IMG/VR virus record: IMGVR_UViG_2690316131_000008
Strand: one strand, 5' to 3'
Length of the DNA stretch: 16,062 bases
Source: a virus
Lineage: Duplodnaviria > Heunggongvirae > Uroviricota > Caudoviricetes
The notes beneath the pieces are model-generated. The model was not told where the DNA came from and searched no databases. It was given only the letters and a program-made list of their open reading frames with translations. A program made the position numbers and the translations under genes. Below are positions 171-14,307 of this stretch, one piece after another. Numbering within the stretch: the first letter of the stretch is position 1; each line of letters opens with the position of its first letter.

Positions 171-194
171 AAAAAAGCCTTCACTGCGGAAGGC
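171..194 (-). terminator. Rho-independent terminator (minus strand)
   Basis: Inverted repeat gccttc/gaaggc (177-182 / 189-194) with 6-nt loop; on the minus strand it is followed by TTTTTT (171-176). Overlaps the last codons of the 181-378 ORF. Confidence 0.5.
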
Positions 195-378
195 GTCTGT
201 AACAACCGAACTGATAGTCTGCCAGACCCGCCATAACCAGCTGGGTCAGTATTAACTGGCAGCGTTCGCGTGAAAGGTAAGTATTCTGCGCAATCTCCCC
301 GACTGTCGCCGGTTCGGTGACGCTCAATTCATTAAACACCACTCTGGCGGTTTCGGTCATATCTTGCTGTTTTAGCAT
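181..378 (-). CDS. Small hypothetical protein, possible winged-helix DNA-binding protein (~65 aa)
   Basis: ORF track 181-402; start chosen at the internal ATG (MLKQQDMTE...) preceded by AAGGGA with ~7-nt spacing. The segment TVGEIAQNTYLSRERCQLILTQLVMAGL looks like an HTH recognition region. Bracketed by minus-strand terminators at 501-523 and 171-194. Family not recognised. Confidence 0.35.
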   Translation of the reverse strand: MLKQQDMTETARVVFNELSVTEPATVGEIAQNTYLSRERCQLILTQLVMAGLADYQFGCYRRLPQ

Positions 379-500: not shown

Positions 501-523
501 AAAAAACCCGCTCAGTGGCGGGT
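501..523 (-). terminator. Rho-independent terminator downstream of the Q-proximal cargo gene
   Basis: Stem acccgc/gcgggt (506-511 / 518-523), loop tcagtg; on the minus strand followed by TTTTTT (complement of the A6 run at 501-506). Confidence 0.6.
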
Positions 524-654
524 TTAAGTTGTGTGGCGAAGTAACCACTCTTAACACACTAATAGCATTTTTGTTATAACACAAGTAGCTCATTCAGTAT
601 TTTTAGAATCTTGACTTTCTTAAGCACGGCGAACTCTGAATACCAAACATAAAA

Positions 655-1272
655 TCAATTATCTTCCAGGCCGGATGCTATCAACGAAAGCCTCTCAAAA
701 AACGCTGTAGCAGCCTTGTCCAAAGTTGAATAAGTACTGTATTCTCCGTGTTCGGGACCAACCACTACCCATGGTCGTCTTTTTGGGATTCGGGACTTCT
801 CAGAAATCACTGTTCCAGATATACCAATATCAATTGTTACACCTGTTATTATTTTCTCTTCATCTCTTTCCCTGAACTCAATTGCCATAAATGCCGTTTT
901 TTTTCGTTTCCCGTTTTTAAAAAAATCAAATAAAGCAAAGCGATGCTCATTAAAATCAACACCCCATCGTCCTTCAGGATAAAGGGCATGAAAGTTGTCA
1001 TTTACGCTCTGCATCGTCTCATAAGCTTTAACTTCTAAATCTCCATAGTGCATAGATACCGCGCAGGAGTCACTGGGTAACTGTATTTTCCCAAGATTGA
1101 AAACCTTTACTGCTCCAGAACTATGGCATCTTGCCCGCAATTTATCCCCATTTATACTAATCGGAGAAATATTCCTTAATGTTCCGGGCTGGCTCCCTCC
1201 TAAGTAAACGACTGTTAAAGATTGCTTATTTTCAATTGCATCAACTAATACATGCTCTACATTTTTATCCAT
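655..1272 (-). CDS. Hypothetical protein, AT-rich cargo (moron) gene immediately downstream of Q
   Basis: ORF track 655-1299; start refined to the ATG for MDKNVEHV (1272), preceded by GGGAGG at ~6 nt. Visibly AT-rich relative to neighbours. No recognisable domain by eye. Confidence 0.6.
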   Translation of the reverse strand: MDKNVEHVLVDAIENKQSLTVVYLGGSQPGTLRNISPISINGDKLRARCHSSGAVKVFNLGKIQLPSDSCAVSMHYGDLEVKAYETMQSVNDNFHALYPEGRWGVDFNEHRFALFDFFKNGKRKKTAFMAIEFRERDEEKIITGVTIDIGISGTVISEKSRIPKRRPWVVVGPEHGEYSTYSTLDKAATAFFERLSLIASGLEDN

Positions 1273-1299
1273 AATAACCTCCCAATGAACAGGTATCAT

Positions 1300-1347
1300 C
1301 AGGAGGTTATAATAAAATATGATTATTTACTTTGATTGAATTTATTA
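1300..1347 (-). promoter_or_regulatory. Putative late promoter / Q-utilisation region (pR'-like)
   Basis: Positional inference only: AT-rich ~48-bp gap directly downstream of the Q stop, containing TTGATT and TA-rich hexamers on the minus strand. In lambdoid phages pR' and qut lie immediately downstream of Q. Confidence 0.25.
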
Positions 1348-1719
1348 CTATATGTAACAATCAATTTCTAAAGATACCCCCAACATTGCCAGACAACCGT
1401 CAATAAACCCTTCAGCTTTCTGCAGTCTGATAACAACCTGATTAAGTGATATCCCCAGTTTTACCCCCAACACCCGTAATGTAACCCCATACACATAATA
1501 CATTTCCAGTAATTCGTATTGATACGGTTCCTTTTTCTTAAGAACTGTCATCGCAGAGCTAATGATCAGGCCATCGTCATCGCTACATTGCGGGCGGGAT
1601 TTTACTTTCGAAGGAATTAATCCCTTAAAACCTGCAGCAACAGATGACCATTCCACATCCTCGTGATTATTTGCCACCCATGCCCCCCAACGTTCAAGAA
1701 CCATTTGAATATCACGCAT
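1348..1719 (-). CDS. Late-gene antitermination protein Q (phage 82 / QuuD-type)
   Basis: Translation MRDIQMVLERWGAWVANNHEDVEWSSVAAGFKGLIPSKVKSRPQC...RLQKAEGFIDG matches the short Q antiterminator family as I recall it. Start at the ATG at 1719 (GGAG 7 nt upstream); the track's 1734 start is a TTG. Confidence 0.75.
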   Translation of the reverse strand: MRDIQMVLERWGAWVANNHEDVEWSSVAAGFKGLIPSKVKSRPQCSDDDGLIISSAMTVLKKKEPYQYELLEMYYVYGVTLRVLGVKLGISLNQVVIRLQKAEGFIDGCLAMLGVSLEIDCYI

Positions 1720-1736: not shown

Positions 1737-2732
1737 TCAGGCCAGCACGCCTATTGCCAGCGCACGATCGATAAAACGAAATATCAGCTCCAGCTGGGAG
1801 CCATACTTCTCTTCAAATGCCACGGTATCCGCATGCAGCTCGTCGTGATGCTTTCTGCACAAAGGCAGCACGAAGAGGTCATGCGCTTTTGTACCCATTC
1901 CCCCCTGACCGTGGCCTATCAGGTGGTGGGGATCATCAGCAGGCTTTCCACAACATGCACACGGCTGCGTCTTAACCCAGCGCGTGTACTTTTCGTTAAC
2001 CCAGCGGCGACGTTTTGGGCGTAACATAAAAGACTCCGGCGACTCCGGATCCACTTTCAGCGCCAGCACCTTTTTCGCTTTATTCTGGATGATGCTGGTG
2101 GCCGGAACCGAAGGCACAAGGTCACTCTCCCGGGTGACAGACGGCACAACAGGCTTCGGTAATCTCAGTGCCTTACGGGCTGCACTTTCCGGTAAGGCAT
2201 CCGCCAGATCATTACGAACCAGCCACCAGCACAGTTCCGGCATTGTCACAACGTGACTGTCATCAAAACCGAGATCCCGACGCACAACAGACAACACCCA
2301 GCGGGCACAGTTATCCGTTGCCATTGATTCCAGCCGTTCCGTGAACTGATCGCGCAGCTGGTTATCGCAGTGCCAGCACAGACGGATTGCGCCCGGCGCG
2401 TGTCGCATTGTGGTCATGTTCTCGCTGTGCCAGTCGGAATGAGGCCACTGGCAACCTTTTTCACGAAGTAACCAGCTTTCAAGACATTCCACGCCACCAG
2501 CACGACGGATCACTGCCTCATTGCGGAACACGGCCCGAACGGCAGGATCATCCGCCAGCGGTTGTGATGCTGCCGGAACGGCACCACTGGCAAAAGATGA
2601 ATAACGTTCCGGCTCAGGCTCCAGCAGGACACGCCCCTGCATAAACAGGGGCATCAGCTCTGAACCGGGTCTGAACAATACGATCCCCATACGCGGGGCA
2701 ATTTCAGGGGTCAGTAGTGCTCTCACGGTCAC
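1737..2732 (-). CDS. DUF968-like protein with C-terminal HNH-type zinc-binding nuclease motif
   Basis: C-terminus CACCGKPADDPHHLIGHGQGGMGTKAHDLFVLPLCRKHHDELH carries a Cys/His HNH-like signature typical of prophage DUF968 (NinG/Rap-like) proteins. GTG start 1 nt after the KilA-N stop. Confidence 0.55.
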   Translation of the reverse strand: MTVRALLTPEIAPRMGIVLFRPGSELMPLFMQGRVLLEPEPERYSSFASGAVPAASQPLADDPAVRAVFRNEAVIRRAGGVECLESWLLREKGCQWPHSDWHSENMTTMRHAPGAIRLCWHCDNQLRDQFTERLESMATDNCARWVLSVVRRDLGFDDSHVVTMPELCWWLVRNDLADALPESAARKALRLPKPVVPSVTRESDLVPSVPATSIIQNKAKKVLALKVDPESPESFMLRPKRRRWVNEKYTRWVKTQPCACCGKPADDPHHLIGHGQGGMGTKAHDLFVLPLCRKHHDELHADTVAFEEKYGSQLELIFRFIDRALAIGVLA

Positions 2733-2733
2733 C

Positions 2734-3549
2734 TCAATGAACGGTATCGAGCAGCTTTAACAGCTCAGGGAATCGGGATTCGAAGAAATGCGGCTGCGTC
2801 TCGCGCGGATTTGCGGGACTGGTGATGTTCTTGCCGAACATGCAACCTTTCGCTGTCAGCGACCAGAATTTTTTGATGTTGTTAATCGCGGTACGGCTGT
2901 ATCGTTCGCGTTGTTCAACGATCCCCAGCTTCGCCATCTGGTGATATGCCTGATTAGCCGTCAGGCGGATACCATACTGCTTCAGCAGTGCACTCAGCGA
3001 CAGCGTAGGGCGGCTTGAACCATCTGGCGCATCAGCAGGTGCATCAATGGCATAGATCGGCATAAGTTCAGGAAGACCAGCTACCTTTGATAATTTCTGG
3101 TATGCACCAAGTTTCGAGGAGTTTGACAGATTTAGAGTCTTTGCTGCTGATTCAAGCAGAATGACCCCGGATTTAATTTTGTCGGATGTGGTTTCTTCTG
3201 GTGATGAATTATGAAGCGCATCAAAAGTACGTATCACTTTTAAGCTGAATGCCGGGCTGATCCACATTGCATATGCATAGACCAGCTCTTTACAGACATA
3301 CGTCCCACCATTGCGCCCCTGAATGGTGATGACAGGAATACTACGGGAATCTCCCGTAGTTTCTTCTTCCAGTAATTCCACAAGAGCCTTCGTTTCAGGA
3401 CGACGCATAAACTCGTGAACTTCCAGCGAACGGGAGGAGCGATTCTCACCAGCGGCAAGAAGAGCAGCTTTCTGAAGGTCGTTAAGACAGTAGTTAGATT
3501 CGAAGTACTGGCGCACAGAAACGCCATCAATTACAAGCAACTGATTCAT
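2734..3549 (-). CDS. KilA-N domain protein (antirepressor-like)
   Basis: N-terminal segment ...GRNGGTYVCKELVYAYAMWISPAFSLKVIRTFDAL fits the KilA-N signature. Start set at the ATG at 3549 (MNQLL, GGAG ~7 nt upstream); the track's 3561 start is a GTG. Confidence 0.65.
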   Translation of the reverse strand: MNQLLVIDGVSVRQYFESNYCLNDLQKAALLAAGENRSSRSLEVHEFMRRPETKALVELLEEETTGDSRSIPVITIQGRNGGTYVCKELVYAYAMWISPAFSLKVIRTFDALHNSSPEETTSDKIKSGVILLESAAKTLNLSNSSKLGAYQKLSKVAGLPELMPIYAIDAPADAPDGSSRPTLSLSALLKQYGIRLTANQAYHQMAKLGIVEQRERYSRTAINNIKKFWSLTAKGCMFGKNITSPANPRETQPHFFESRFPELLKLLDTVH

Positions 3550-3711
3550 TGGTTTCTCCACAAATTTTTATCCACGAGCGGGACTGCACTCCCTTTTCGT
3601 TGATGCAGGATGAACTTACTGCGATTTTTAATAGTTATCAAGGATACACTGTTCATAAATACAGTATCTTTAACGAGGTAATACCCAAATTTAGGGTGTT
3701 GCTCAATTCCG

Positions 3712-4107
3712 TTACCGAGTTGCTAATTTGCAACTCGCTTTTTCGTACTTACTGATAGTGATCTCGACCTTCCCCTCCGGGATAACCGGTCCCCACTCCA
3801 CCAGCATTCTTTTCACCTGTCTGTCGTCTTCCCACACACCCGCGTGGGTCAGGGCGTCAAACAGCGCCTTGTTATAGTTGTCCAGATCGCGGATCCGGTT
3901 ATCCGGAGGAAACAACACGATCTCCACTGAAGCAGGTGCCGACGTTGGTTTCGGCAGACGACGTAACTGCTCAACTATTGCTGCACACGCCGCGCTCTGG
4001 AATTTTCGCCCCGCCGCGCTTATCAGGCTCTTACCAGCAAACGCCCCTTTGTTGGGGTGTCGCCAGTACGTGTTCACGCTGGGCGGAAAAGGCAGTATTA
4101 GCTTCAT
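3712..4107 (-). CDS. rusA: RusA-family Holliday junction resolvase
   Basis: MKLILPFPPSVNTYWRH...DLDNYNKALFDALTHAGVWEDDRQV matches the RusA signature (LPxPPSxNxYxRH; DLDN; acidic catalytic residues). ATGA overlap with the upstream gene. Confidence 0.8.
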   Translation of the reverse strand: MKLILPFPPSVNTYWRHPNKGAFAGKSLISAAGRKFQSAACAAIVEQLRRLPKPTSAPASVEIVLFPPDNRIRDLDNYNKALFDALTHAGVWEDDRQVKRMLVEWGPVIPEGKVEITISKYEKASCKLATR

Positions 4108-4430
4108 ACTTTCAGGCCCCTCTCATGTAACCAGTGGGCTGCACGCAGCCTGGCGTTTGCCTCACCGGCAAGCAGGGCGCGGATAATCCCGACCGCCTCG
4201 CTGTCGTCGTCCTTCACCGCGGTATGAAGAGTGATACCCCGGGCCACGCCACGCTTTATCGTGATGACACCTTTTTTCTCCAGTGCGCGAAGATGCTCCA
4301 CCGCTGCATTCACCGAACGGTATCCCAGCATGGTTGCCACCTCCTGATTGGTTGGCGGGAAGCCACGTTCTTTCTGATAAGAAATCAGCATATCCAGCAC
4401 CTGCTGCTGGCATTGAGTTAATGTCGTCAT
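4104..4430 (-). CDS. LexA N-terminal DNA-binding domain protein, no peptidase domain
   Basis: MTTLTQCQQQVLDMLISYQKERGFPPTNQEVATMLGYRSVNAAVEHLRALEKKGVITIKRGVARGI parallels the LexA N-terminal winged-helix domain. Only 108 aa, so no S24 domain. ATGA overlaps at both ends. Confidence 0.65.
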   Translation of the reverse strand: MTTLTQCQQQVLDMLISYQKERGFPPTNQEVATMLGYRSVNAAVEHLRALEKKGVITIKRGVARGITLHTAVKDDDSEAVGIIRALLAGEANARLRAAHWLHERGLKV

Positions 4431-5080
4431 GCCGCCATCTCCCTGACCAGTTTTTCCGCCTGCTGGCGAACCTGCGCCAGAAACGCCTCACCACATACCT
4501 CAAGTTCATCGCGCCCGATGTAGCTGATTGCCGCTCCCTTCCAGGTCTTGTCGAAAACAGCAATAGCACCAGCGAAGAAAGCACCTGTTGGCACCTGCTT
4601 TTCGTCTTTCGGGATAAACCAGGCTGGCAGTTCAAAACCAATACGCCCGCGAATAAAAGCAATATGATCTGCATCTTCCGGCCACCATACTTCGCTGGTG
4701 GCCGCTTTGATCAGGAAAACATAGCGCCCGCCCTTATCACGCATGGCACTGGCATGTTTCATGATGTAACGCATGCCGGTGATGTATTGCCCCTCATGCT
4801 GACTGGCGCGGCTGTATGGGGGATTACCAAAGGCAGCACCTTTAAGCTCCGCAAGACGTTCTGACCAGTCATGCGCCAGCGCGTTGTCTTCCGCCGTGTA
4901 ATACGCGGCACATTTGGCGTTATCACCGTCAGTGAACAGATCCAGAACAAACGGACCAAACAAGGTGTTAATTCCCCAGAAAATGTTGTCCGGCGTGCGC
5001 CACTGATCGCCCACTTCCTTCAGTTCATGGGCTGGTTTGTTCCGCAGCTCCACCAGCGCCTGGCAATATTTATTACTCAT
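4427..5080 (-). CDS. Phage Dam-type DNA N6-adenine methyltransferase
   Basis: N-terminal DQWRTPDNIFW (DxWxTP-like) and catalytic GNPPYS (NPPY) motifs. Start refined to the ATG for MSNKYCQ at 5080, which shares one base with the upstream TAA stop. Confidence 0.8.
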   Translation of the reverse strand: MSNKYCQALVELRNKPAHELKEVGDQWRTPDNIFWGINTLFGPFVLDLFTDGDNAKCAAYYTAEDNALAHDWSERLAELKGAAFGNPPYSRASQHEGQYITGMRYIMKHASAMRDKGGRYVFLIKAATSEVWWPEDADHIAFIRGRIGFELPAWFIPKDEKQVPTGAFFAGAIAVFDKTWKGAAISYIGRDELEVCGEAFLAQVRQQAEKLVREMAA

Positions 5081-5571
5081 TAAGCCCCCACGTAATTCCC
5101 TGACAGATACCACTCTTCACCCGATGCAGCGCGCTTGCTGCTTTTCCGTAAGCACCGCTCACGATGCGCCAGAAAATTGTTTCGTTCTGGCTGGGAGTGG
5201 CTTTCACGGAATGCCGCCATCCACACCGTTGCAGCACGACGGTATAAGCCCCTGGACTCCAGTTCTTCCGCCTGGCGGGTCAACAAAATCACCCGGGGAT
5301 CGTTAGTGCCGACATAGAAATTGCGCACAGGTCTGGTTTCACGAACTGGTTGTGGTTCCGGCTCCTGCGCTCTCTCAGTCAGGCGTGGGAAATGTCTGCG
5401 TGTATCTCCTTCACAACGGTGAGCCACACGCCCACTCTGACGTAACTTGCTTGCTGACTGCAGAACGCGCTGCCGTGAGTAACCAGCAAAAGCATCCGCA
5501 ATGTCTCCGGAAGTACACCCCGGATGGGCTTCAATGAATTTCTGAACTTCATTCAAAAGACTCATGATCAC
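5080..5571 (-). CDS. PerC-like putative transcriptional regulator (prophage YfdN-like)
   Basis: Segment LTRQAEELESRGLYRRAATVWMAAF resembles the PerC-family core as I recall it; Arg-rich N-terminal half. GTG/ATG start overlaps the stop of the upstream replication gene. Confidence 0.45.
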   Translation of the reverse strand: MIMSLLNEVQKFIEAHPGCTSGDIADAFAGYSRQRVLQSASKLRQSGRVAHRCEGDTRRHFPRLTERAQEPEPQPVRETRPVRNFYVGTNDPRVILLTRQAEELESRGLYRRAATVWMAAFRESHSQPERNNFLAHRERCLRKSSKRAASGEEWYLSGNYVGA

Positions 5572-6560
5572 CCCCTGAATCCTGCCGGGATCTGGCTGTA
5601 GTCCACGTTGTCGTAACTGGATTTGAAGTACGGGTCTTCGCGTTTTTCGGTGTACGTGCTGACGGACGGCGATAAGCGCAGGGAAAGCTCATCCCATTTT
5701 TCCCGCAGCTTCGACGGGCTGAGCACGTTACGGCACCAGAACGGATCGCGGCTGACGCGGCAGTACATCTCGCAGATTTGTTTGTGAGTACGCCCATCCT
5801 GTACACACATCAGGCGAATTTCGTTTGCCCAGGCTGTCCAGTTCGGTTCTTTAGGACGTACCACTTCGCCGTCACATTCGGCGGCCTGCTCGTACAGAGC
5901 GATGATTTTTTTCCAGAGCCACTGTGCGCAGGTCAAATCATCCTGCGTTCCCCACTGGCGCTTTTTAGGGCTGAATACAACCGCATCAGGATGGCGAGTT
6001 AAAAAATCCTGTTCAGCCATCTGCGTGTCCGGTTGCGAAGCGTCCGGACGAGAAGAGGTTTTATTCTCTGTAGTAATCTCTGTTGTATTCTCTGTAAGAT
6101 CATTGGGCCATTTTGACCCGATGACAGCGTGTCGTTTTGAACCAATGGATCGTGTCATTTTGCGCCCATCCATCAGGTCACTTTGACCCGATGGAGAAGT
6201 GCATTTTGACCTAATGGATTCGTTCACTTTGACCTCTTCTAAAAGCTCACTTTCATAGTTGATCGTGTAGAAGTTGGTCATGTCACGCTTCGATTTATTG
6301 AGTTGCTCGCGACGCAAAACCCCAAGTGATTTCAGGCTTGCAAATGTGCGTTTCAGAGTGGACTCTGACCAGAACGGAAACTGCTCCAGCCACTGTTCTG
6401 TCGTGTTATAAACCCAGCGAATTCCGCCATGCTCAGTGCCGGAATTCGTTTCATTCAGCCAGTAATGAAGCTGCTGCAACACAATTGCCTCATTCAGACC
6501 AATACGGCATGCAAGATCACGATTTATCACAATGGGCTGGGATGTCATTAACAGGCTCAT
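5568..6560 (-). CDS. Phage replication initiation protein (lambda O analogue) with internal origin iterons
   Basis: 330-aa ORF with a helix-turn-helix-like N-terminus and a Cys/Trp-rich C-terminal domain. The central linker region is encoded by the iteron array at 6109-6240, as in lambda O/ori. AGAGGT RBS precedes the ATG at 6560. Confidence 0.65.
   Translation of the reverse strand: MSLLMTSQPIVINRDLACRIGLNEAIVLQQLHYWLNETNSGTEHGGIRWVYNTTEQWLEQFPFWSESTLKRTFASLKSLGVLRREQLNKSKRDMTNFYTINYESELLEEVKVNESIRSKCTSPSGQSDLMDGRKMTRSIGSKRHAVIGSKWPNDLTENTTEITTENKTSSRPDASQPDTQMAEQDFLTRHPDAVVFSPKKRQWGTQDDLTCAQWLWKKIIALYEQAAECDGEVVRPKEPNWTAWANEIRLMCVQDGRTHKQICEMYCRVSRDPFWCRNVLSPSKLREKWDELSLRLSPSVSTYTEKREDPYFKSSYDNVDYSQIPAGFRG
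6109..6240. repeat. Iteron array (putative origin of replication): six ~23-bp direct repeats
   Basis: Direct repeats starting at 6109, 6133, 6156, 6179, 6202 and 6225 (cattttgacccgatg / cgttttgaaccaatgg / cattttgcgcccatcc / cactttgacccgatgg / cattttgacctaatgg / cactttgacctc), period 23-24 bp. Flanked at 6061-6100 by three copies of TCTCTGT at 12-bp spacing. Confidence 0.7.
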
Positions 6561-6729
6561 GACCGACCTCTATTTCCCTGAATTTACGACGAAACTGTTC
6601 GAGCGGGCTGAAGCACTCATGTTCATAGCCTTCACGGAGGTAGATAACCCGTTGTGTTTCCGGCTCCCAACGAATGACTCTGACGGGCACTCCGTAGTGA
6701 TCTTTGAACCAGCGGTTAACTTGTCGCAA
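6517..6729 (-). CDS. Small hypothetical protein (possible DUF4222-like); frame ambiguous
   Basis: Frame encoding ...[47 protein letters not shown]... looks protein-like. A TTG start at 6729 is preceded by AAGGAG at ~8 nt; the track's 84-aa ORF begins at a GTG at 6771. Overlaps the O-like start by 44 nt. A competing 112-aa frame (6570-6908) is described in the findings. Confidence 0.35.
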
Positions 6730-6904
6730 AGGACTGTCTCCTTCTGCCGGTTGAAATCCCCCACAGCCCACTCTGCAAAGCTGTGGGTTACAATTTCCCT
6801 GTCACCTGGTACATTCACTGCATAGCAATACTCCACCTTCGCTTTTCCACCCGGTACAGGAAGCGCAATCAGTTGCGAGCGACGGTAGTGTGTTGTTAAA
6901 CTGT

Positions 6905-7546
6905 TCATGCGTTAGTTTCTCCACAACCAGAAGCAATCGACGCCACGACGCCCGGAGCTGCACACTCGCGGGCGTTACTCTTTTCCGGCGCACAAAAAAC
7001 ACGAAATAACAGTGTTAAATGCTCCTGCCACTTCGCCATTACTTGGTAGCTGTTCTCTTCGATTTGCTCACGCTCAGCTTGGTCAATAACTCCATCAGCA
7101 GTTGCCTTGCGTAAGTACTGGGAATGCTTGCCAATCCATTCTATTGACTCCATCAGCCGCTGATTAATGTCACCATTGTCAATGTCATCAATGACCACCA
7201 GCGGCACAAACACCCCATTACTACGACGGGCTATTGCATCCGTTACATGCCTGGTACCACTGGCATCCTGTAAAACCATGGCCCACTCAAGTGGAAAAAT
7301 TTGATCCCCACCGCTACGCAGTCTGTTATGCAATTGATCTTTTGCTGGGGTGATATCATCAGATTTATACAAACCAAGAATTTCTGCTGCTTCCTCATAG
7401 CCATGAGGTAAATCAGCAATCGTTCTTCGTATTGCTGCCACCAGCCATGCTGGTTGCTTATCAACTTTCCATTCAGGTTCTTTACCCACGTTTAAGCCCT
7501 CATATCTGTGGTTTCTGTAAATCGATTTATCCATTAGATTTTTCAT
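6905..7546 (-). CDS. YdaT/CII-like putative regulatory protein
   Basis: Sits directly downstream of the Cro/YdaS-like gene, where lambdoid and Rac-type prophages carry cII or ydaT. Start set at the ATG at 7546 (MKNLMDK...), since the track ORF (to 7603) would overlap cro by 77 nt. Functional assignment is positional. Confidence 0.45.
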
Positions 7547-7727
7547 AAAGCTCAGGTTTAAATGGCAACCGTCCGCAAGTTCTATATGCAGCCTCTGCTG
7601 CACGTCCTTTTGGAATTAACTGGCCAGGACGGTTTCGCCACTGATAAACGGCTTCAGTTGTTATGCCGAAAAAAGCAGCAACTTTCTCAATGCTGCCGAA
7701 GTAGCTTTCGATATCGTCAGTCGTCAT
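7527..7727 (-). CDS. Cro/YdaS-like HTH transcriptional regulator
   Basis: 66-aa protein; [46 protein letters not shown] fits the Cro/YdaS-type HTH pattern. Divergent from the CI-like repressor across a 97-bp operator region. Confidence 0.7.
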   Translation of the reverse strand: MTTDDIESYFGSIEKVAAFFGITTEAVYQWRNRPGQLIPKGRAAEAAYRTCGRLPFKPELYEKSNG

Positions 7728-7738
7728 ATGCCCTCCAA

Positions 7739-7803
7739 ACTAAGTTTTATTAGATGTTAATTATCAATCTATCTTAGGTCAATAAAAACTAAGATTACTT
7801 AGT
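7739..7803. promoter_or_regulatory. Divergent promoter/operator region (OR-like) with two 16-bp operator-like sites
   Basis: ACTAAGTTTTATTAGA (7739-7754) and ACTAAGATTACTTAGT (7788-7803) share the pattern ACTAAG-N4-nTTAGn with inverted half-sites, in the 97-bp gap between cro and cI. Confidence 0.5.
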
Positions 7804-7824
7804 AATTAAAGAAATGGTGCTCCT

Positions 7825-8451
7825 ATGGAAACGGTTGGTCAGCGTATAAAAGCTCTGAGAAGAGTTACCAGAACGTCCCAGAAAGAATTGGGTAAATTTT
7901 GTGGAGTAAGTGACGTTGCTGTGGGGTACTGGGAGAAAGACATCAATGTCCCTGGTGGGGAAGCACTTTCAAAATTAGCGAAGTTCTTCAATACGTCAAT
8001 AGATTACATTCTTTATGGTGCGGAGTTTGAAGGCAAACTCGTCACAAACATGCGCAGAGTTCCTGTAATCTCGTGGGTTCAGGCTGGGCAGTTTACTGAG
8101 TGCAGGACAGCAGAAGTGTTTAGTGAAGTAGACAAGTGGGTAGATACATCATTAAAGATTGGTGATAACTCATTTGCATTGGAGGTTAAAGGCGACTCCA
8201 TGACTAACCCTAACGGCCTCCCAACAATACCAGAAGGCGCAACAGTGATTGTAGATCCTGATGCAGAACCCCGGCATGGAAAAATAGTCATCGCTAGACT
8301 TGATGGAACAAACGAAGCCACAGTAAAAAAATTAGTTATCGATGGCCCTCAAAAGTTTTTAGTGCCATTAAATCCCCGGTACCCCAACATCCCGATCAAT
8401 GGTAATTGCCTCATCATTGGTGTAGTCAAAGGAGTTCAATACGAACTCTAG
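7825..8451 (+). CDS. CI-like phage repressor (N-terminal HTH, C-terminal S24 LexA-like peptidase)
   Basis: N-terminus QRIKALRRVTRTSQKELGKFCGVSDVAVGYWE is an XRE-type HTH. C-terminus carries GDSM (Ser nucleophile) and VKKL (Lys general base about 40 residues later), as in LexA/lambda CI. Confidence 0.85.
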   Translation: METVGQRIKALRRVTRTSQKELGKFCGVSDVAVGYWEKDINVPGGEALSKLAKFFNTSIDYILYGAEFEGKLVTNMRRVPVISWVQAGQFTECRTAEVFSEVDKWVDTSLKIGDNSFALEVKGDSMTNPNGLPTIPEGATVIVDPDAEPRHGKIVIARLDGTNEATVKKLVIDGPQKFLVPLNPRYPNIPINGNCLIIGVVKGVQYEL

Positions 8452-8470
8452 CCCCCCTTTTCTCTAACCA

Positions 8471-8508
8471 AAACACCGAACTAAGAAAAGTTTGGTGTTT
8501 TCTCTTGC
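8471..8508 (+). terminator. Putative terminator downstream of cI
   Basis: 11-bp stem (8471-8481 / 8490-8500, one G-U pair), 8-nt loop, followed by tctcttg. The U-tract is weak. Confidence 0.35.
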
Positions 8509-8540
8509 CATCAAAACTAAGTTAAGTTAGATTTTATATC
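8505..8540 (+). promoter_or_regulatory. Putative early-left promoter (pL-like) with operator-like site
   Basis: TTGCCA (8505-8510), 17-bp spacer, TAGATT (8528-8533). Overlaps a third copy of the operator motif, ACTAAGTTAAGTTAGA (8516-8531). Confidence 0.3.
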
Positions 8541-8628
8541 AAAGATAACGAACAGGCAGGACGCCCACGAAGTAGCCGACGGTGGCGTATGAATGACCGG
8601 ATGATTCGCAAATGGCAGGAGAGTGAAT

Positions 8629-9021
8629 ATGGATGGCAGTATCGACAACCAACGAGATGCCTGGCTTGTGGTGATTGAAGCAGCAAAAACTGCATTAAGC
8701 CAAGTTGAAAGCAGTAACTACAGAACAGTTAAACAAATGGCTTTGGGCTCTATTATCTATGCCTTTGAAAAGCTGGGCTTTGATTTTGAAGCAACGAGTA
8801 TTCTGTCAGAACAACATGAAAAAATGAATAGAGAAGACGCCGCAGCCTATATCGGCGTAGAAGCGCAAACCTTAGCTAATTGGGCTAGCACAGGAAAAGT
8901 TCGAATACCTTTTTTAAAAATCGGTAGAAAGGTTATTTACCTAAAAAGTGATCTTGAGCCTATCTTGCCTCATCGAAGGCAAATACCACCAAGTAGCTCA
9001 CGTACCTACCACCTCGCCTGA
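8629..9021 (+). CDS. HTH (excisionase/AlpA-type, HTH_17-like) DNA-binding protein
   Basis: C-terminal REDAAAYIGVEAQTLANWASTGKVRIPFLKIGRKVIYLKSDLE fits the excisionase/AlpA-type HTH pattern. ATG at 8629 with AGGAG 7 nt upstream (the track start at 8623 is a GTG). First gene after cI on the plus strand. Confidence 0.5.
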   Translation: MDGSIDNQRDAWLVVIEAAKTALSQVESSNYRTVKQMALGSIIYAFEKLGFDFEATSILSEQHEKMNREDAAAYIGVEAQTLANWASTGKVRIPFLKIGRKVIYLKSDLEPILPHRRQIPPSSSRTYHLA

Positions 9022-9227
9022 TGTGGCTAAAAGCAGGCACATAACAGCTAAGTATTTTCAACCAGAGAGAATCCTTAGCGTTGTGGTGAATGCGCAGGCT
9101 GATGCGCGAAAGACATTGCAGCTATTGCGGAAAAGAGCTGTTCGGCGGGGCAATTAAACGCCCGTGAGAGTCTGAAATAACCGCAAGCCGGAGATCAGCA
9201 CCGGTCACCACAACAGCCACTGCTTTG

Positions 9228-9275
9228 GCGGTACCAGTTTGTACACTTGCTTCCGGCTGGTACCGCTCTTTTTAC
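9228..9275 (+). terminator. Rho-independent terminator upstream of the rdgC-like gene
   Basis: Perfect 10-bp stem gcggtaccag / ctggtaccgc (9228-9237 / 9257-9266) with a 19-nt loop, followed by tcttttta (9267-9274). Confidence 0.5.
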
Positions 9276-9396
9276 AAAACAGAGAAGAGCATCACCGGCC
9301 GACGGGCTCATAACCCAATCCATCCGGGCGGCTGCCACCGCAGGTGTTCTTCTCTGTTTTGTGGAGAAACTAATATCTTGTGCAGAGGAAAATAGA

Positions 9397-10314
9397 ATGA
9401 AATTACCAAAATTTCGTAACGCAATTGTGTACCGAGCAACATTACCTAGTATACAGGCTATTGAAGGTCATCTTCTCGAACTCCCTTATTCTGAAATCGG
9501 GGAAACAGAATTTTCACGGTCCTCTTTTGTAGAGAATCCTGTCACTGGTGAACTGGTAACTCCGATATCTGGTGGGTACGCAATGGTAATCCGTCATGAT
9601 CAGAAAATAATTCCCCGACATGTCGTCATGAAAGAAGCTAATTCTCGAATCCAAACAATCGAAAATATGTCCGGGAATAAATTAAAGCGTGCCGAACGAC
9701 TGGCCATTATTGATAACGTACGAGTAGATCTATGCAAACAGGCATTTGTTAAGTCTACGCTGATTCTTGCATTGTACAGCACTGATGAGAAATTATTGGT
9801 AATCAACACAACCAATAAAATAATAGCCGGTATGGTATGCGCAATGCTGATTAAGGTTGTCGGTTCAGTGAAAACAGAAACAATCAACATCAGTGATATC
9901 AAGAATGGACTGACTACACGCCTGAATAACTACATCAATGGTGCAGCCAATGCATTTGAAGGATTCACTGTCGGAAATTATATTCAGCTATCACGCTACG
10001 CAGATCAAAAGGAAATTATTCGCTACTCAGCTGAGCATGAGTCAATTCAAAGCGAACTGGCCGATAGTCTTAGTAGTAGTTTCACTGCTGATAAAATGGA
10101 GTTATCCGGTTGCGGTGTGACCTTCATTCTTACCGAAAATTTCCATTTTTCGCGCATCAATACTCAATCTCAGACATTTAATGATGAAGATGATAAAGCA
10201 TTCCAGTGGCGTCATCAGACTGGCGCTGACCTTTTCCAATTCAGCAAGGTAGTTAATTTGATGTGTGACCTTCTTTCTTACAAAGAAGATAAAAGCCAAA
10301 ATCCAACAACTTAA
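9397..10314 (+). CDS. RdgC-like recombination-associated protein
   Basis: 305 aa from the ATG at 9397 (GAGGA 7 nt upstream). N-terminus MKLPKFRNAIVYR parallels E. coli RdgC (MLWFKNLMVYR), and length matches (~303 aa). AT-rich. Family call from memory. Confidence 0.5.
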   Translation: MKLPKFRNAIVYRATLPSIQAIEGHLLELPYSEIGETEFSRSSFVENPVTGELVTPISGGYAMVIRHDQKIIPRHVVMKEANSRIQTIENMSGNKLKRAERLAIIDNVRVDLCKQAFVKSTLILALYSTDEKLLVINTTNKIIAGMVCAMLIKVVGSVKTETINISDIKNGLTTRLNNYINGAANAFEGFTVGNYIQLSRYADQKEIIRYSAEHESIQSELADSLSSSFTADKMELSGCGVTFILTENFHFSRINTQSQTFNDEDDKAFQWRHQTGADLFQFSKVVNLMCDLLSYKEDKSQNPTT

Positions 10315-10404
10315 AAAAATTGCAGCAATCATCCCATGTCAAATGGGCTGGATTGCTGCAATCAAAATTCAGAGCGGTGCAGCGCATATAACGTGGAGAA
10401 CAAA

Positions 10405-10941
10405 ATGTCATTTATTAAAACTTTTTCCGGGAAGCATTTTTATTATGACAAGATAAATAAAGACGACATCGTGATTAACGATATCGCGGTTTCCCTTTCA
10501 AATATCTGCCGCTTTGCCGGTCATCTTTCTCACTTCTACAGTGTCGCCCAACATGCGGTGCTTTGCAGCCAGCTGGTGCCGCAGGAATTTGCTTTTGAAG
10601 CGTTAATGCATGATGCAACAGAAGCGTATTGCCAGGATATTCCCGCTCCACTGAAACGCCTTCTTCCTGACTATAAACGGATGGAAGAAAAAATAGACGC
10701 CGTAATCCGTGAGAAATACGGGTTACCCCCGGTTATGAGCACGCCTGTGAAATATGCCGATCTCATCATGCTGGCAACCGAACGCCGCGATCTCGGGCTT
10801 GATGATGGCTCTTTCTGGCCAGTACTGGAAGGTATCCCGGCAACAGAAATGTTCAAAGTTATTCCACTGGCTCCGAGCCATGCCTACGGGATGTTTATGG
10901 AGCGCTTTAACGAGTTATCGGAGTTACGCACATGCGCATGA
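10405..10941 (+). CDS. HD-domain phosphohydrolase (YfbR-like putative 5'-deoxynucleotidase)
   Basis: Motifs AGHLSHFYSVAQHAV ... ALMHDATEAY (His...His-Asp) fit the HD superfamily. Start at the ATG at 10405 (GGAG 6 nt upstream). Confidence 0.65.
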   Translation: MSFIKTFSGKHFYYDKINKDDIVINDIAVSLSNICRFAGHLSHFYSVAQHAVLCSQLVPQEFAFEALMHDATEAYCQDIPAPLKRLLPDYKRMEEKIDAVIREKYGLPPVMSTPVKYADLIMLATERRDLGLDDGSFWPVLEGIPATEMFKVIPLAPSHAYGMFMERFNELSELRTCA

Positions 10942-11543
10942 ATGTTTTCGAAATGGAAGGGTTTCTTCGCGGGAAATGTGTACCACGAGATCTGAAAGTG
11001 AATGAAACAAATGCTGAATATCTGGTGCGTAAATTTGCTGAAGCGGAGGCCAAGATTTTGGCTCTGTCCGAAGACCAACAGAAAGCGATTGAGTCAATTA
11101 AGCAGGCTGATGCAGCTGTTAAGTTGGCACACGAGAAGTTTTCGGTGCTGGCGGCGGAGAATGCGGGGCTGAAACACGCAATGGCCGTAACTCTTGAGCA
11201 TGTGTCGGTCACGGATGCAGGGCAGGCTGGTGTTGCTGCAATGATTATCAACGATGCCCTACACCACAGCGAAACTCCAGCCACCGATGCTTTCCTGGCT
11301 GAAATTCGTGCGGAAGCACGCAACGAGGGGATTAACTATACCGCAAGCCGTCTTGCTGCTGCTTTCAATCACGGATTTATCAATGAGTCTTTACGTGAAG
11401 TTTTCGACGTTACACGCATGATTCTGTCAGCGAAAGAAGAGTTGGCTAATGAACCACACCCGATTGATGGCCTGTCCGGTGAATATGCGGAGAAATCCCT
11501 AGAAGAATGGGCGGAACAGATTCGCAAAGGAGGCAACCAGTGA
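10932..11543 (+). CDS. Hypothetical protein (Ala/Glu-rich, probably helical)
   Basis: 203-aa ORF overlapping the HD gene stop by 10 nt; GGAG upstream. No recognisable domain. Confidence 0.55.
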   Translation: MRMNVFEMEGFLRGKCVPRDLKVNETNAEYLVRKFAEAEAKILALSEDQQKAIESIKQADAAVKLAHEKFSVLAAENAGLKHAMAVTLEHVSVTDAGQAGVAAMIINDALHHSETPATDAFLAEIRAEARNEGINYTASRLAAAFNHGFINESLREVFDVTRMILSAKEELANEPHPIDGLSGEYAEKSLEEWAEQIRKGGNQ

Positions 11544-11764
11544 GCGGAAAAAGAATGACTAACAGAGAGCTTGTTGATGCCGCGATTAAGCTTGCTGGTG
11601 ATTTTTATTCAATGATGGGGTACGCGCATCGCCCTGGATTCAAATATTGGGAATCACCGCATCCGCAAGAGCAACTGGTATTTCAAATGGCCTGCCGTGC
11701 TTTTGAGGTTATTCGCGGTTCTGATGTGATGGACGCCGTTGCCGACTTGGAGGATGAAGAGTGA
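11540..11764 (+). CDS. Small hypothetical protein
   Basis: GTG start at 11540 overlapping the upstream TGA stop (GTGA), with AAGGAGG 6 nt upstream; an ATG at 11555 is the alternative start. Confidence 0.45.
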   Translation: MSGKRMTNRELVDAAIKLAGDFYSMMGYAHRPGFKYWESPHPQEQLVFQMACRAFEVIRGSDVMDAVADLEDEE

Positions 11765-12309
11765 CCCAAATTAACTATCAGGCACTGCGTGAAAAGGCAG
11801 AGAAAGCAACTAAAGGAAGCTACATCGTAGGGCATACATCTGTTAACCAGCACGGCAATTTAACAGGAGTTTTTGTTTGCCAAAAATGGAAAGGAGAACC
11901 CGGTGGCGTGATTGCGGAATGTCATGTTAACTGCCTGATTGAATCAGATGCTCAGGCTTATGCAAACGCTGAATTCATAGCAGAGGCTAACCCGGCTACC
12001 GTGCTGGCACTGCTGGATGAACAGGAAAGAAACCTGCAATACATCAAAAGCCGCGATCAGGAGAACGAGGATATTGCGCTAACGGTAGGGAAGCTGCGCG
12101 TTGAGCTTGAAGCAGAAAAACAGCGGGCAAAAGTTCTATTTATGGAAAATGCTCGGCTTAAGTCAGGCATAGCCGGTCTGATACACCTCGGTATTCGATA
12201 TGCAGATGTTGAGGTCATGAAAATTGCTGGAGATGCCCAGCTTTCTACCCCATGCACTGACAGCATCATAAACAGCATTGCAACAGGCATTCGCATCAAA
12301 GGAGAGTGA
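11761..12309 (+). CDS. Ead/Ea22-like protein
   Basis: N-terminus ...INYQALREKAEKATKGSY resembles the conserved N-terminus of Ea22-like early-left proteins of lambdoid phages. GTG start with GTGA overlap and GGAGG RBS. Confidence 0.55.
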   Translation: MTQINYQALREKAEKATKGSYIVGHTSVNQHGNLTGVFVCQKWKGEPGGVIAECHVNCLIESDAQAYANAEFIAEANPATVLALLDEQERNLQYIKSRDQENEDIALTVGKLRVELEAEKQRAKVLFMENARLKSGIAGLIHLGIRYADVEVMKIAGDAQLSTPCTDSIINSIATGIRIKGE

Positions 12310-12310
12310 T

Positions 12311-12826
12311 ATGGCGTTAACACACCACGAACTCTGTCAGATTGCGTACAAGTTCCTTAAGCGCAACGGGTTCAAGGTTTGCTTTCATGACCGCTTTGTT
12401 GCTGTAACCAGTACCGGAGAACAGCCAGATGCTATGGGATTCAGAAATTCAGCATCATGCCTGATAGAGGCGAAGTGTTCTCGTGCTGACTTGTTGGCAG
12501 ATAGAAAAAAGCGTTTCCGTAAAAATCCCTCACTTGGCATGGGCGACTGGCGATTCTTTATTAGTGAGCCGGAAATTATTTCAGTTGAGGATTTACCTCC
12601 CGGCTGGGGATTACTTCACGTTGTTAACGGAAGAGTACGGAAAGTACATGGATGGCCCAGGGGTAATTGCTGTTGGGGTAATCCTGACGATAAGCCATTT
12701 ACTGGGAATAAGCAGGTTGAATGCGATTACATGTTATCTGCATTAAGGCGCATGGAGTTGAGAGGGCACCTTAATGAAATATATGACGGTGTGATTGTTA
12801 ATAAGAAAGAAGGAAACGCGGCATGA
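12311..12826 (+). CDS. Hypothetical protein with PD-(D/E)xK-like nuclease signature
   Basis: Start at the ATG at 12311 (AGGAG 6 nt upstream). Sequence ...GEQPDAMGF...SCLIEAKCSRADL contains a PD ... E-x-K arrangement. Inference only. Confidence 0.45.
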   Translation: MALTHHELCQIAYKFLKRNGFKVCFHDRFVAVTSTGEQPDAMGFRNSASCLIEAKCSRADLLADRKKRFRKNPSLGMGDWRFFISEPEIISVEDLPPGWGLLHVVNGRVRKVHGWPRGNCCWGNPDDKPFTGNKQVECDYMLSALRRMELRGHLNEIYDGVIVNKKEGNAA

Positions 12827-13389
12827 TCACTATTACCAAAGGGCGACTGCTGACAATCCAGCAGTGGCGCGAAACATACGGACCTGGCAGCAACGTTGTA
12901 CTGCCAGCAGAAGAAGCGGAAGAACTGGCACGAATTGCACTGGTATCGCTGGAAGCAGAGCCTGTAAGCCAAACTTACAACTTGCCAGAATTAATCGAAG
13001 GCATGGAAGTTTCCATTGATGTAAGCACTTGTGATGTTGATTTAGGTAATCGCTATTTCGGTACCGTCACCGAGGCGTTAGAACTTGATACAGCCAAAAA
13101 TGGTTACATCCTCCTAGTTCAGGACGCAGAGCCAAACTTCGATGTAAATGGCAACTCTCCGGGAACTCCGGATAGTTGGATAAGCTGTAGTGATCGAATG
13201 CCTGAAAAGGGCCAGAACGTGCTTATTTCGGTGAATTTCGATAGCTCTCAGGTTGAACCGCTAATATGCTCCGCACGCTATACCGGAAGCACCTTTCGGC
13301 GCGGAGATGCAACGATTAAGCCGGGTAATGGTATTGAGCAAGCAACTCACTGGATGCCGCTACCGGAACCGCCGCTGGAGGTGAAGTGA
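12823..13389 (+). CDS. DUF551-like phage protein
   Basis: C-terminal WISCSDRMPEKGQNVLI ... THWMPLPEPP resembles the DUF551 conserved block of enterobacterial prophage proteins. ATGA overlap with the upstream gene. Confidence 0.6.
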   Translation: MITITKGRLLTIQQWRETYGPGSNVVLPAEEAEELARIALVSLEAEPVSQTYNLPELIEGMEVSIDVSTCDVDLGNRYFGTVTEALELDTAKNGYILLVQDAEPNFDVNGNSPGTPDSWISCSDRMPEKGQNVLISVNFDSSQVEPLICSARYTGSTFRRGDATIKPGNGIEQATHWMPLPEPPLEVK

Positions 13390-13961: not shown

Positions 13962-13997
13962 TTTTCCCGGGTGCAGCCGGTTTTGATGGAGAAAATT

Positions 13998-14279: not shown

Positions 14280-14281
14280 AG

Positions 14282-14307
14282 AAAAAACCCGCCTGAAGGC
14301 GGGTTTT
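14282..14307. terminator. Bidirectional Rho-independent terminator between convergent operons
   Basis: A6-cccgcc-tgaa-ggcggg-T4: a 6-bp GC stem with tetraloop, flanked by an A-run on one side and a T-run on the other, so it can terminate both the plus-strand xis transcript and the minus-strand Panacea operon. Confidence 0.65.

What the first reader, a model, noticed from the sequence alone, without database searches (positions are those of the whole stretch)
655..1347. AT-rich 205-aa unknown gene directly downstream of Q, in the Q-dependent cargo position
In lambdoid phages the segment between Q and the lysis genes is transcribed from pR' only after Q antitermination, and it is where Stx phages carry stx and DLP12 carries nmpC. 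Here a strongly AT-rich gene with a strong GGGAGG RBS sits about 75 bp downstream of the Q stop and is followed by a clean terminator at 501-523. I recognise no domain in it. The placement predicts expression coupled to prophage induction, consistent with a toxin, an effector or an abortive-infection/defence protein.
Basis: partly seen in the sequence, partly recalled or inferred. Interest (0 to 1): 0.65.

Follow-up and report, generated by a model that had tools for sequence, protein, structure and literature searches.

The report
Sensor-only WYL gene between Q and pR'
The gene is real and encodes a small nucleic-acid-sensing (WYL-domain) protein with no DNA-binding part, but it lies upstream of the site where the phage Q protein acts, so it is probably switched on together with Q, not by Q; its biological role is untested.

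Summary
A 205-aa ORF lies on the minus strand (1272->658, stop 657-655), with a GGGAGG RBS, 75 nt after Q. Its GC is 39.7%, and dN/dS is 0.22 against a 72%-identical ortholog.

2. The terminator at 501-525 does not belong to this gene. It ends a late-operon leader found in 4360 of 5426 E. coli genomes. In Stx2c phages that leader starts 20 bp after Q.

3. In 12 loci, each of 6 Q helix-turn-helix classes has its own palindrome exactly 17 nt upstream of the leader, whatever lies in between. So Q most likely loads at about 584-556, downstream of this gene.

The gene is therefore cargo trapped between Q and Q's target. It is probably co-transcribed with Q, and a hairpin sequesters its RBS. The module occurs in about 75 E. 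coli genomes, always with this Q allele, including one Stx2 prophage. The role is unknown; ssDNA binding is the best guess.

The parts
655..1272 (-). CDS of the 205-aa stand-alone WYL-family protein (stop at 657-655). WYL barrel at aa 1-68, disordered linker at 69-78, alpha/beta C-terminal domain at 87-205.
1273..1312 (-). 5' leader of the gene. A 15-bp hairpin (UUAUAACCUCCUGAUGA...UCAUUGGGAGGUUAU) buries the GGGAGG Shine-Dalgarno sequence (1283-1278) and ends 4 nt before the AUG.
   Evidence: -23.3 kcal/mol, z = -4.4, 0 of 200 shuffles fold as well. The equivalent hairpin in L008 is kept, with C->U giving G-U pairs.
1348..1719 (-). Antiterminator Q, a distant relative of Q21. Its C-terminal helix-turn-helix allele ('class A') is found only together with the WYL gene.
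   Evidence: PF06530, 1.3e-47; Q21 structure 6jnx, E 5.5e-10; the 3' half of Q plus the WYL 5' end occurs in 75 genomes, 74 of them with at least 80% coverage of the query.
568..584 (-). TTGTGTTATAACAAAAA. It contains the palindrome TGTTATAACA (581-572) and is the candidate Q-binding element and -35 region of the late promoter for this Q class.
   Evidence: identical in the two diverged WYL-linked modules, and replaced by a different palindrome at the same distance (17 nt from the leader) in every other Q HTH class (12 loci, 6 classes). Single copy in the window.
556..561 (-). TAGTGT, a -10-like hexamer (TAnnnT in 10 of 12 loci, CAGTAT in the other two). It is either the -10 of pR' or the sigma-dependent pause element.
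   Evidence: Which of the two it is remains an inference; consensus promoter scans were not decisive.
501..555 (-). Conserved late-operon leader (GTTAAGAGTGGTTACTTCGCCACACAAC) ending in the intrinsic terminator at 525-501 (tR'-equivalent).
   Evidence: matches in 4360 of 5426 genomes; alignment with an Stx2c phage, DLP12 and BS90R-A; fold of -20.1 kcal/mol; single copy.
181..378 (-). 65-aa winged-helix-like protein (phrog_331). It is the first gene downstream of the terminator and so the first truly Q-dependent gene. A hairpin/U-tract follows at 194-177, and the 5' end of a DNA methyltransferase gene (start at about 30) runs off the window.
   Evidence: The same order (65 aa, methylase, tRNA Ile/Arg/Arg, then stx2 or nanS-like or DUF6645, then holin) is seen.

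Best explanation
The ORF is a genuine accessory gene for a 'sensor-only' WYL protein. It has an N-terminal WYL (Sm-like) ligand-binding barrel and an uncharacterised alpha/beta C-terminal domain, and it lacks the winged-helix DNA-binding domain that all characterised WYL regulators carry.

Shown: the gene sits between Q and a downstream cassette made of a Q-class-specific palindrome, a -10-like hexamer, a conserved leader and a terminator. It is inherited as one block with that Q allele.

Inferred: the cassette is Q's own late promoter and loading site. On that reading the gene is not part of the Q-antiterminated late transcript. With no terminator between Q and the gene, it would be transcribed with Q on the delayed-early (pR-type) transcript. 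Translation would be throttled by a conserved hairpin that buries its Shine-Dalgarno sequence.

Inferred: the strict linkage to Q is most simply explained by position. Anything lying between Q and its cognate binding site cannot be recombined away without breaking the Q/site pair.

Inferred from conserved pocket residues, untested: the protein binds single-stranded DNA (or a similar phosphate-backbone ligand) as DriD, CapW and BrxR do. Lacking a DNA-binding output, it would act by sequestering or reporting that ligand through protein contacts during induction and replication.
For: Position:
- The leader/terminator block at 555-501 is present in 4360 of 5426 E. coli genomes.
- In an Stx2c prophage and in PPyecE_EH1910 the homologous region begins 20 bp after the Q stop, and the leader itself 41 nt after the last Q codon.
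- In 12 loci the interval between Q and the leader ranges from 41 to 2886 nt with different contents, yet each of 6 Q HTH classes keeps its own 8-9-bp palindrome exactly 17 nt upstream of the leader.
- The window holds one copy of the palindrome and one of the leader, both downstream of the gene.
- No terminator-like site lies between Q and the gene.

Linkage:
- 74 of the 75 genomes with this Q 3' half also carry the WYL 5' end.
- dS is 0.80 for Q and 0.82 for the WYL gene between the two module variants.

Hairpin.

Protein:
- AF2 model with pLDDT 86.
- The family profile hits the DriD WYL domain at E 1e-4, aligning Y23, S27 and R33 with DriD Y168, S172 and R178. PMC10853764 reports these as ssDNA phosphate contacts; in that paper Y168A, and a double mutant that includes R178A, abolish DriD activity. 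The equivalent Ser is essential in CapW (PMC11662680).
- Y23 and R33 are invariant and S27 nearly so in 96 diverse homologs.
- 34 of 96 members hit Pfam WYL.
- No HTH in the protein or in longer relatives.
Against: - No transcription start has been mapped. Consensus sigma-70 scans find no strong promoter in the proposed pR' region or in the Q-WYL gap.
- The palindromes are called Q-binding elements only because they covary with Q. The one solved relative, Q21, binds a direct repeat (bioRxiv 10.1101/651190).
- A promoter overlapping the Q 3' end cannot be formally excluded. Even then the gene would precede the first terminator and would still not depend on Q.
- The window protein alone scores below Pfam's WYL cutoff (16.5 vs 21.8 bits).
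- The canonical W-Y-L strand motif could not be aligned. The correspondence K56/F58 = DriD R204/W206 rests on spacing only.
- Homologs occur in very different places: after a CI-like repressor, next to Rha, and isolated in chromosomes. So the biological role may not be tied to lytic growth at all.
Confidence: 0.55

Rival explanations
1. The gene is the first gene of the Q-antiterminated late operon: pR' lies in the 75-nt Q-WYL gap, and the gene is expressed only after Q acts, like stx.
For: The gene is immediately downstream of Q on the same strand, in an AT-rich intergenic region with weak -10-like hexamers. In lambda itself pR' directly follows Q (established knowledge).
Against: The element that covaries with Q specificity, and the leader shared with Stx phages, lie downstream of the gene. 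No terminator separates Q from the gene. Even a promoter in the gap would therefore give Q-independent expression up to the terminator at 525-501. The gap is poorly conserved between the two module variants apart from the RBS hairpin.
Confidence: 0.08
2. Anti-defence decoy. During induction the sensor-only WYL protein soaks up the ssDNA signal, or heterodimerises with host wHTH-WYL-WCX repressors (CapW, BrxR). This would prevent de-repression of CBASS, BREX and similar systems that otherwise cut phage yield.
For: The protein keeps the ssDNA-contact residues but has lost the output domain. It is placed to be co-expressed with Q at the time of replication. CapW-driven CBASS induction lowers lambda yield about 100-fold on prophage induction (PMC11662680). 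The papers read on WYL regulators report no phage-encoded WYL decoy.
Against: Entirely inferential. Relatives sit in lysogenically expressed positions, downstream of CI-like repressors, and as isolated chromosomal genes. A lytic-phase counter-defence would not be expected in either place. An IS-disrupted copy exists in a resident prophage.
Confidence: 0.17
3. Lysogen-protecting defence or exclusion factor (abortive infection or superinfection exclusion), or an ssDNA-triggered sensor that works with a host or prophage partner.
For: It has a moron-type position and AT-rich composition. Relatives lie directly after the CI-like repressor, as rexAB does in lambda, or next to the integrase/repressor region. 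WYL domains are frequent in defence loci (PMC9122601, PADLOC WYL models).
Against: There is no effector or enzymatic domain, and no conserved acidic, His or Cys catalytic positions among the invariant residues. There is no conserved partner gene. PADLOC gives only weak hits to Cas-associated WYL models (E 1e-3). In this prophage the gene has no evident own promoter and its RBS is sequestered.
Confidence: 0.15
4. Dedicated cofactor or modulator of this Q allele, for example one that times Q loading or binds the short leader RNA through its Sm-like barrel.
Against: Linkage is expected anyway for anything trapped between Q and its site. Other Q classes work with an empty slot or with unrelated cargo. 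Distant homologs are not next to Q genes.
Confidence: 0.05

Closest known systems
DriD sensor half (WYL + WCX, residues 126-327; PDB 7tzv) of the Caulobacter ssDNA-activated regulator
CapW / BrxR (wHTH-WYL-WCX repressors of CBASS and BREX)
   Different: CapW and BrxR are operator-binding repressors encoded next to the systems they control. This protein has no HTH, no adjacent regulated operon, and is phage-borne.
WYL1 (Cas13d accessory protein)
   Different: WYL1 has an N-terminal ribbon-helix-helix domain and is CRISPR-linked. No such context exists here.
Cargo between Q and the lysis genes of lambdoid phages (nmpC in DLP12, lc in PA-2, stx in Stx phages)
   Same: The same genome neighbourhood and the same moron logic. 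The identical flanking backbone carries stx2 in strain 2015C-3905.
   Different: stx lies downstream of the leader/terminator and the tRNAs, so it depends on Q. This gene, like nmpC in DLP12, lies upstream of that cassette.
Lambda rexAB / sieB-type immunity-region morons
   Same: Distant homologs of this gene lie directly downstream of a CI-like repressor gene.
   Different: The E. coli copy is not in the immunity region, and no exclusion phenotype is known.

Membership tests
WYL domain (Pfam PF13280) | Five-stranded Sm/SH3-like beta-barrel preceded by a helix | tested here: met
WYL domain (Pfam PF13280) | Sequence match to the Pfam model above the gathering score | tested here: inconclusive
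   The window protein scores 16.5 bits against a cutoff of 21.8 (E 0.0085). Of 96 family members, 34 match at E <= 0.01, the best at 4.8e-8. The family profile hits DriD WYL at E 1e-4.
WYL domain (Pfam PF13280) | Conserved ligand-pocket residues (DriD Y168, S172, R178; CapW S144/S158) | tested here: met
   Y23, S27 and R33 align to these residues. Y23 and R33 are invariant and S27 is >=90% conserved in 96 homologs. Their roles are taken from PMC10853764 and PMC11662680.
WYL domain (Pfam PF13280) | The eponymous W-Y-L (or RWHVR) strand motif | tested here: inconclusive
   The candidate strand is K44-L-R-A-R-C49. The HMM alignment stops at residue 38, so the correspondence is not established.
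wHTH-WYL-WCX transcription regulators (PafBC, DriD, CapW, BrxR) | N-terminal winged helix-turn-helix DNA-binding domain | tested here: not met
   The WYL barrel starts at residue about 15, after a single helix. No HTH was found by Pfam in this protein or in longer relatives.
wHTH-WYL-WCX transcription regulators (PafBC, DriD, CapW, BrxR) | C-terminal WCX domain that completes the ssDNA pocket and the dimer | tested here: inconclusive
Q-dependent late-operon cargo (stx-type position) | Lies downstream of the Q loading site/pR' and of the leader terminator | tested here: not met
   The Q-class-specific palindrome, the leader and the terminator are at 584-501, downstream of the gene's stop at 655. 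There is a single copy in the window.
Q-dependent late-operon cargo (stx-type position) | Transcript appears only when Q is active | not testable with these tools
   Needs RNA mapping or reporters with and without Q.
Phage moron / variable accessory slot | Presence or absence and replacement by unrelated genes between conserved flanks | tested here: met
   The same flanks (Q, and the leader with the 65-aa gene and methylase) hold nothing, this gene, a 409-aa gene, one or two opposite-strand genes, or nmpC plus IS5.
Known anti-phage defence proteins (PADLOC-DB 2.0) | Significant match to a defence-system model | tested here: not met
   Only Cas-associated WYL models matched, at E 1.4e-3 and 6.6e-3, covering the barrel alone.

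The most novel reading that the evidence does not exclude
Temperate phages carry a widespread family of 'decapitated' WYL sensors: the ssDNA-binding barrel plus a new C-terminal domain, with no DNA-binding output. These would act as sponges or dominant-negative partners for the ssDNA alarm signal that host WYL repressors (CapW, BrxR and relatives) use to switch on CBASS, BREX and other defences. That would be a counter-defence aimed at the regulators of immunity and not at its effectors. Here the gene is parked in the one place on a lambdoid genome where recombination cannot remove it without breaking late-gene control.
Probability: 0.15. Interest if true: 0.75.

Novelty: new variant of a known kind. 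Interest (0 to 1): 0.4.

Why it matters
For this finding, the correction matters most. In this large group of Q21-related lambdoid and Stx prophages, 'next to Q' does not mean 'controlled by Q'. The Q target sits behind a hypervariable cargo slot, and genes in that slot (this one, nmpC-type porins, several opposite-strand cassettes) follow different expression rules from stx.

The class-specific palindromes give testable candidate Q-binding elements for at least six Q specificity classes, including those that drive Stx2c, Stx2e and some Stx2a phages.

The protein itself defines a sizeable uncharacterised family (954 clusters at 50% identity) of WYL sensors without an output domain. If it binds ssDNA, it offers a simple handle on how phages or lysogens manipulate the ssDNA signal now known to regulate CBASS, BREX and DNA-damage responses.

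Tried and rejected
- Rfam scan of 1-1800 at E <= 1: nothing above any gathering score.
- Sequence search of the single protein against the PDB: no hit at E <= 10.
- NCBIfam: no family for the protein or for other slot occupants.
- PADLOC: only weak WYL hits.
- BFVD Foldseek: nothing at E <= 1e-3. The afdb50 library was unavailable.
- Word-indexed homolog search gave only 9 proteins. The exhaustive profile search was needed.
- The genome-contig scan returned only 7 loci, and two long ones showed no conserved neighbour.
- Fusion analysis of longer relatives found no informative domains apart from one zinc-ribbon tail.
- Literature search for a published pR' sequence of this Q group failed. The Q21 structure paper keeps its sequences in figures. 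The Stx pR' comparison paper gives no coordinates for this class. A full-text search for the leader sequence found nothing relevant.
- Mapping the DLP12 promoter-fusion primers: only the forward primer maps (inside nmpC), so the published start site could not be placed.
- Consensus -35/-10 scans were uninformative in every region tested.
- The RBS hairpin was considered as a Q-distal intrinsic terminator and rejected. Its 3' tail is UUAUUAUGG, it is not U-rich enough, and the scan did not flag it.
- The 214-aa upstream start was rejected because its frame is not conserved.

Full report
**1. The observation**

The minus strand carries an ORF with ATG at 1272, last codon at 660-658 and TGA at 657-655, giving 205 aa. 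GGGAGG lies at 1283-1278, 5 nt before the ATG. The upstream gene (1719->1351, stop 1350-1348) is an antiterminator Q. It matches PF06530 at E 1.3e-47 and is a distant relative of the structurally solved Q21 (6jnx, E 5.5e-10).

The ORF has 39.7% GC, against 46.9% for the window and 52-58% for the adjacent early genes.

A hairpin followed by six U lies on the minus strand at 525-501. The terminator scan did not list it.

The gene is under purifying selection. Against the 72%-identical ortholog in L008/L009, dN/dS is 0.22 with dS 0.82. The alternative 214-aa start at 1299 is out of frame in that ortholog, so the 205-aa product is the real one.

**2. Where the window comes from**

In those genomes the order on the coding strand is: DUF968/HNH, Q, this ORF, a 65-aa gene, a DNA methyltransferase, tRNA Ile (or Met)/Arg/Arg, a large cargo gene (DUF6645 or SASA/NanS-like esterase), holin, lysozyme.

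This is the Stx-phage layout. In strain 2015C-3905 the same backbone, including a 72%-identical copy of this ORF, carries stx2A after the tRNAs.

**3. Where Q acts**

The segment 573-420, which includes the terminator, matches 4360 of 5426 complete E. coli genomes.

In an O157:H7 Stx2c prophage the homologous segment begins only 20 bp after the Q stop. In DLP12 it lies 120 bp upstream of essD, separated from quuD by IS5 and the opposite-strand porin gene nmpC.

Alignment of four contexts shows an invariant leader, GTTAAGAGTGGTTACTTCGCCACACAAC, followed by the terminator. It is preceded by a variable stretch.

I then collected 12 loci in which the interval between Q and the leader ranges from 41 to 2886 nt. 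The contents of that interval were:
- nothing
- this ORF
- a 409-aa same-strand gene (phiP27)
- one or two opposite-strand genes (BS90R-A, Stx2a_1447, cdtI, PhiR40_1, mEp460_4F5)
- nmpC plus IS5

Sorting the loci by the Q helix-turn-helix region gives six classes. Each class has its own 8-9-bp palindrome exactly 17 nt upstream of the leader:

| Q HTH class | Palindrome | Loci |
|---|---|---|
| A | GTTATAAC | this window and its 79%-identical variants |
| B | GCGGTCCGC | four loci with intervals of 41, 41, 1179 and 1517 nt |
| C | GCGTACGC | two loci |
| D | ACGTACGT / ACAATCGT | DLP12 and PhiR40_1 |
| E | GGAATTCC | phiP27 |

Each palindrome is followed by an A-tract and a TAnnnT hexamer.

A specificity element that tracks the Q DNA-binding region, sits at a fixed distance from a shared leader and terminator, and is indifferent to what lies between it and Q, is what a Q-binding element next to pR' should look like. 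This rests on established knowledge of lambda, 82 and 21, and on the cassette description in bioRxiv 10.1101/651190.

In the window the palindrome (581-572), the hexamer TAGTGT (561-556), the leader (555-526) and the terminator (525-501) each occur once, all downstream of the ORF.

I conclude, with about 0.8 confidence, that the ORF lies upstream of Q's site of action.

The exact start site is not established. Consensus promoter scans are uninformative here and in the Q-ORF gap. I could not find a published sequence for this Q group.

**4. How the gene is probably expressed**

No terminator-like site lies between Q and the ORF. The default is therefore co-transcription with Q on the delayed-early transcript.

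The 5' leader of the ORF forms a 15-bp hairpin that buries the Shine-Dalgarno sequence. Its energy is -23.3 kcal/mol (z = -4.4), and none of 200 shuffles fold as well. The diverged variant keeps the pairing through C->U changes that give G-U pairs. Translation is therefore likely to be restricted or conditional.

This step is inferred, not shown.

**5. Linkage with Q**

The 3' half of this Q allele plus the start of the ORF occurs in 75 genomes. In 74 of them the match covers at least 80% of the query. There are two variants: >=99% identity (52 genomes) and about 79% (22 genomes).

Synonymous divergence between the variants is the same for Q (0.80) and the ORF (0.82), so the two genes have travelled together for a long time.

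The simplest explanation is positional. A gene lying between Q and its cognate binding site cannot be exchanged by recombination without separating a co-adapted pair. A functional tie to Q is possible but not needed. Other Q classes work with an empty or differently filled slot.

**6. The protein**

Pfam gives a sub-threshold WYL match at residues 8-64 (16.5 bits, cutoff 21.8). RefSeq already labels some copies 'WYL domain-containing protein'.

PHROGs places the protein in phrog_8498, function unknown.

An exhaustive profile search finds 954 cluster representatives at E <= 1e-3. Nearly all are stand-alone proteins of 187-210 aa. Longer relatives carry no HTH.

With a 96-sequence alignment, AlphaFold2 gives pLDDT 86. 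The model has a helix plus five-stranded barrel (1-68), a disordered linker (69-78), and an alpha/beta domain with a long C-terminal helix (87-205).

The family profile hits the DriD WYL domain by sequence (E 1e-4). It aligns VVYLGGSQPGTLRNISP with FRYEGGSTPGRTREVTP. This puts Y23, S27 and R33 on DriD Y168, S172 and R178. These residues contact the ssDNA backbone, and Y168A, or a double mutant that includes R178A, abolishes DriD activity (PMC10853764). The equivalent Ser is essential for ssDNA binding by CapW and BrxR (PMC11662680, PMC13622015).

Y23, G26, R33 and K56 are invariant, and S27 is nearly so, across the 96 homologs. Of the 96, 34 hit Pfam WYL individually.

The protein is best described as a WYL sensor without an output domain. 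ssDNA (or related ligand) binding is likely but untested.

**7. Context of relatives**

- In Pseudoalteromonas phage PY3 the homologous region is the N-terminal half of a 369-aa protein encoded between the integrase and the repressor.
- In two marine viral contigs the gene follows a CI-like repressor on the same strand.
- In two other phage contexts it lies next to a Rha-type regulator.
- In a Vreelandella genome and an alphaproteobacterial genome it is isolated among housekeeping genes.

There is no conserved partner. These are typical moron positions, several of them lysogenically expressed. For that reason I do not commit to a lytic-phase role.

**8. Comparison with what is known**

- It works like the sensor half of DriD, CapW or BrxR. 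It is not a member of the wHTH-WYL-WCX regulator family, because the defining HTH was tested for and is absent.
- It is not in the stx-type Q-dependent position, because the defining placement downstream of the Q site and terminator was tested and not met.
- It is a member of the WYL-domain superfamily by fold and pocket residues.
- It is not in PADLOC as a defence protein.

**9. Verdict**

This is a real accessory gene in a genuinely variable slot, but the slot is upstream of Q's target, not downstream.

What is new is modest. It comprises an uncharacterised architecture within a known superfamily, plus a clear comparative picture of the Q/late-promoter cassette in Q21-related prophages.

The most novel reading that the evidence does not exclude is a phage decoy for the ssDNA alarm sensed by host WYL repressors. 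It is attractive but speculative (probability about 0.15).

Interest is 0.4.

Noticed in passing
window 501-584 (minus strand); loci L004, L005, L014, L023, L024, L078-L081: A late-leader cassette is shared by 4360 of 5426 E. coli genomes. A different 8-9-bp palindrome sits 17 nt upstream of the invariant leader for each of six Q helix-turn-helix classes. These are candidate Q-binding elements for Stx2c, Stx2e, some Stx2a, cdtI and DLP12-type phages.
   Followed up: partly
loci L005 1847-2866, L023 878-2441, L024 1017-2405, L078 1351-2580, L079 2062-2508, L081 1108-2514: The Q-to-leader slot holds at least seven other unrelated cargo sets, mostly on the opposite strand. Examples are 339 aa; 179+343 aa; 147+313 aa; 148 aa; 56+308 aa; and a 409-aa same-strand gene in the Stx2e phage phiP27. 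Six of them (those in L005, L023 and L024, plus a 141-aa ORF in the corresponding slot of phage Ayreon, L022) were scanned against NCBIfam and none had a credible match.
   Followed up: partly
window 1286-1313 (plus strand): A promoter-like site, TGAACA-16-TATAAT (10 of 12 matches), lies antisense to the ORF start and points into the 3' end of Q. It recalls lambda's anti-Q promoter paQ. The L008 variant keeps it only partly (TGAACG-16-TACTGT), and it overlaps the RBS hairpin.
   Followed up: no
window 181-378 (minus strand) and 177-194: A 65-aa winged-helix-like protein (phrog_331; weak TrmB/MarR-type hits) is the first gene after the late-leader terminator. It is conserved in Stx phages ahead of the methylase and the tRNAs, and it has its own hairpin/U-tract just after its stop.
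   Followed up: no
L009 (E. coli 2015C-3905, NZ_CP027371.1) 2833-6364: An Stx2 prophage carries the diverged variant of the Q-WYL module directly upstream of the 65-aa gene, methylase, tRNAs and stx2A. This Q class therefore drives Shiga toxin expression in some strains.
   Followed up: partly
L006 (E. coli 266917_2) 6292-8247: An IS4-like ISVsa5 element has inserted into the WYL gene of a resident prophage and split it into 98-aa and 119-aa remnants. The gene is therefore dispensable for maintaining the lysogen.
   Followed up: no
L075 3529-4579, L076 3576-4576; L011 6001-7667, L077 3998-5687: In distant phages the family gene lies immediately downstream of a CI-like repressor on the same strand, or is paired with a Rha-type regulator in two otherwise different neighbourhoods.
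   Followed up: partly
window 1737-5113 (minus strand): The early genes upstream of Q are a DUF968/HNH nuclease (331 aa), a KilA-N/Ant-like protein (275 aa), RusA, a short LexA-like protein (108 aa) and an N6-adenine methyltransferase. This is a typical mosaic lambdoid nin region. No single E. coli genome matches more than about 80% of 2000-16062.
   Followed up: no
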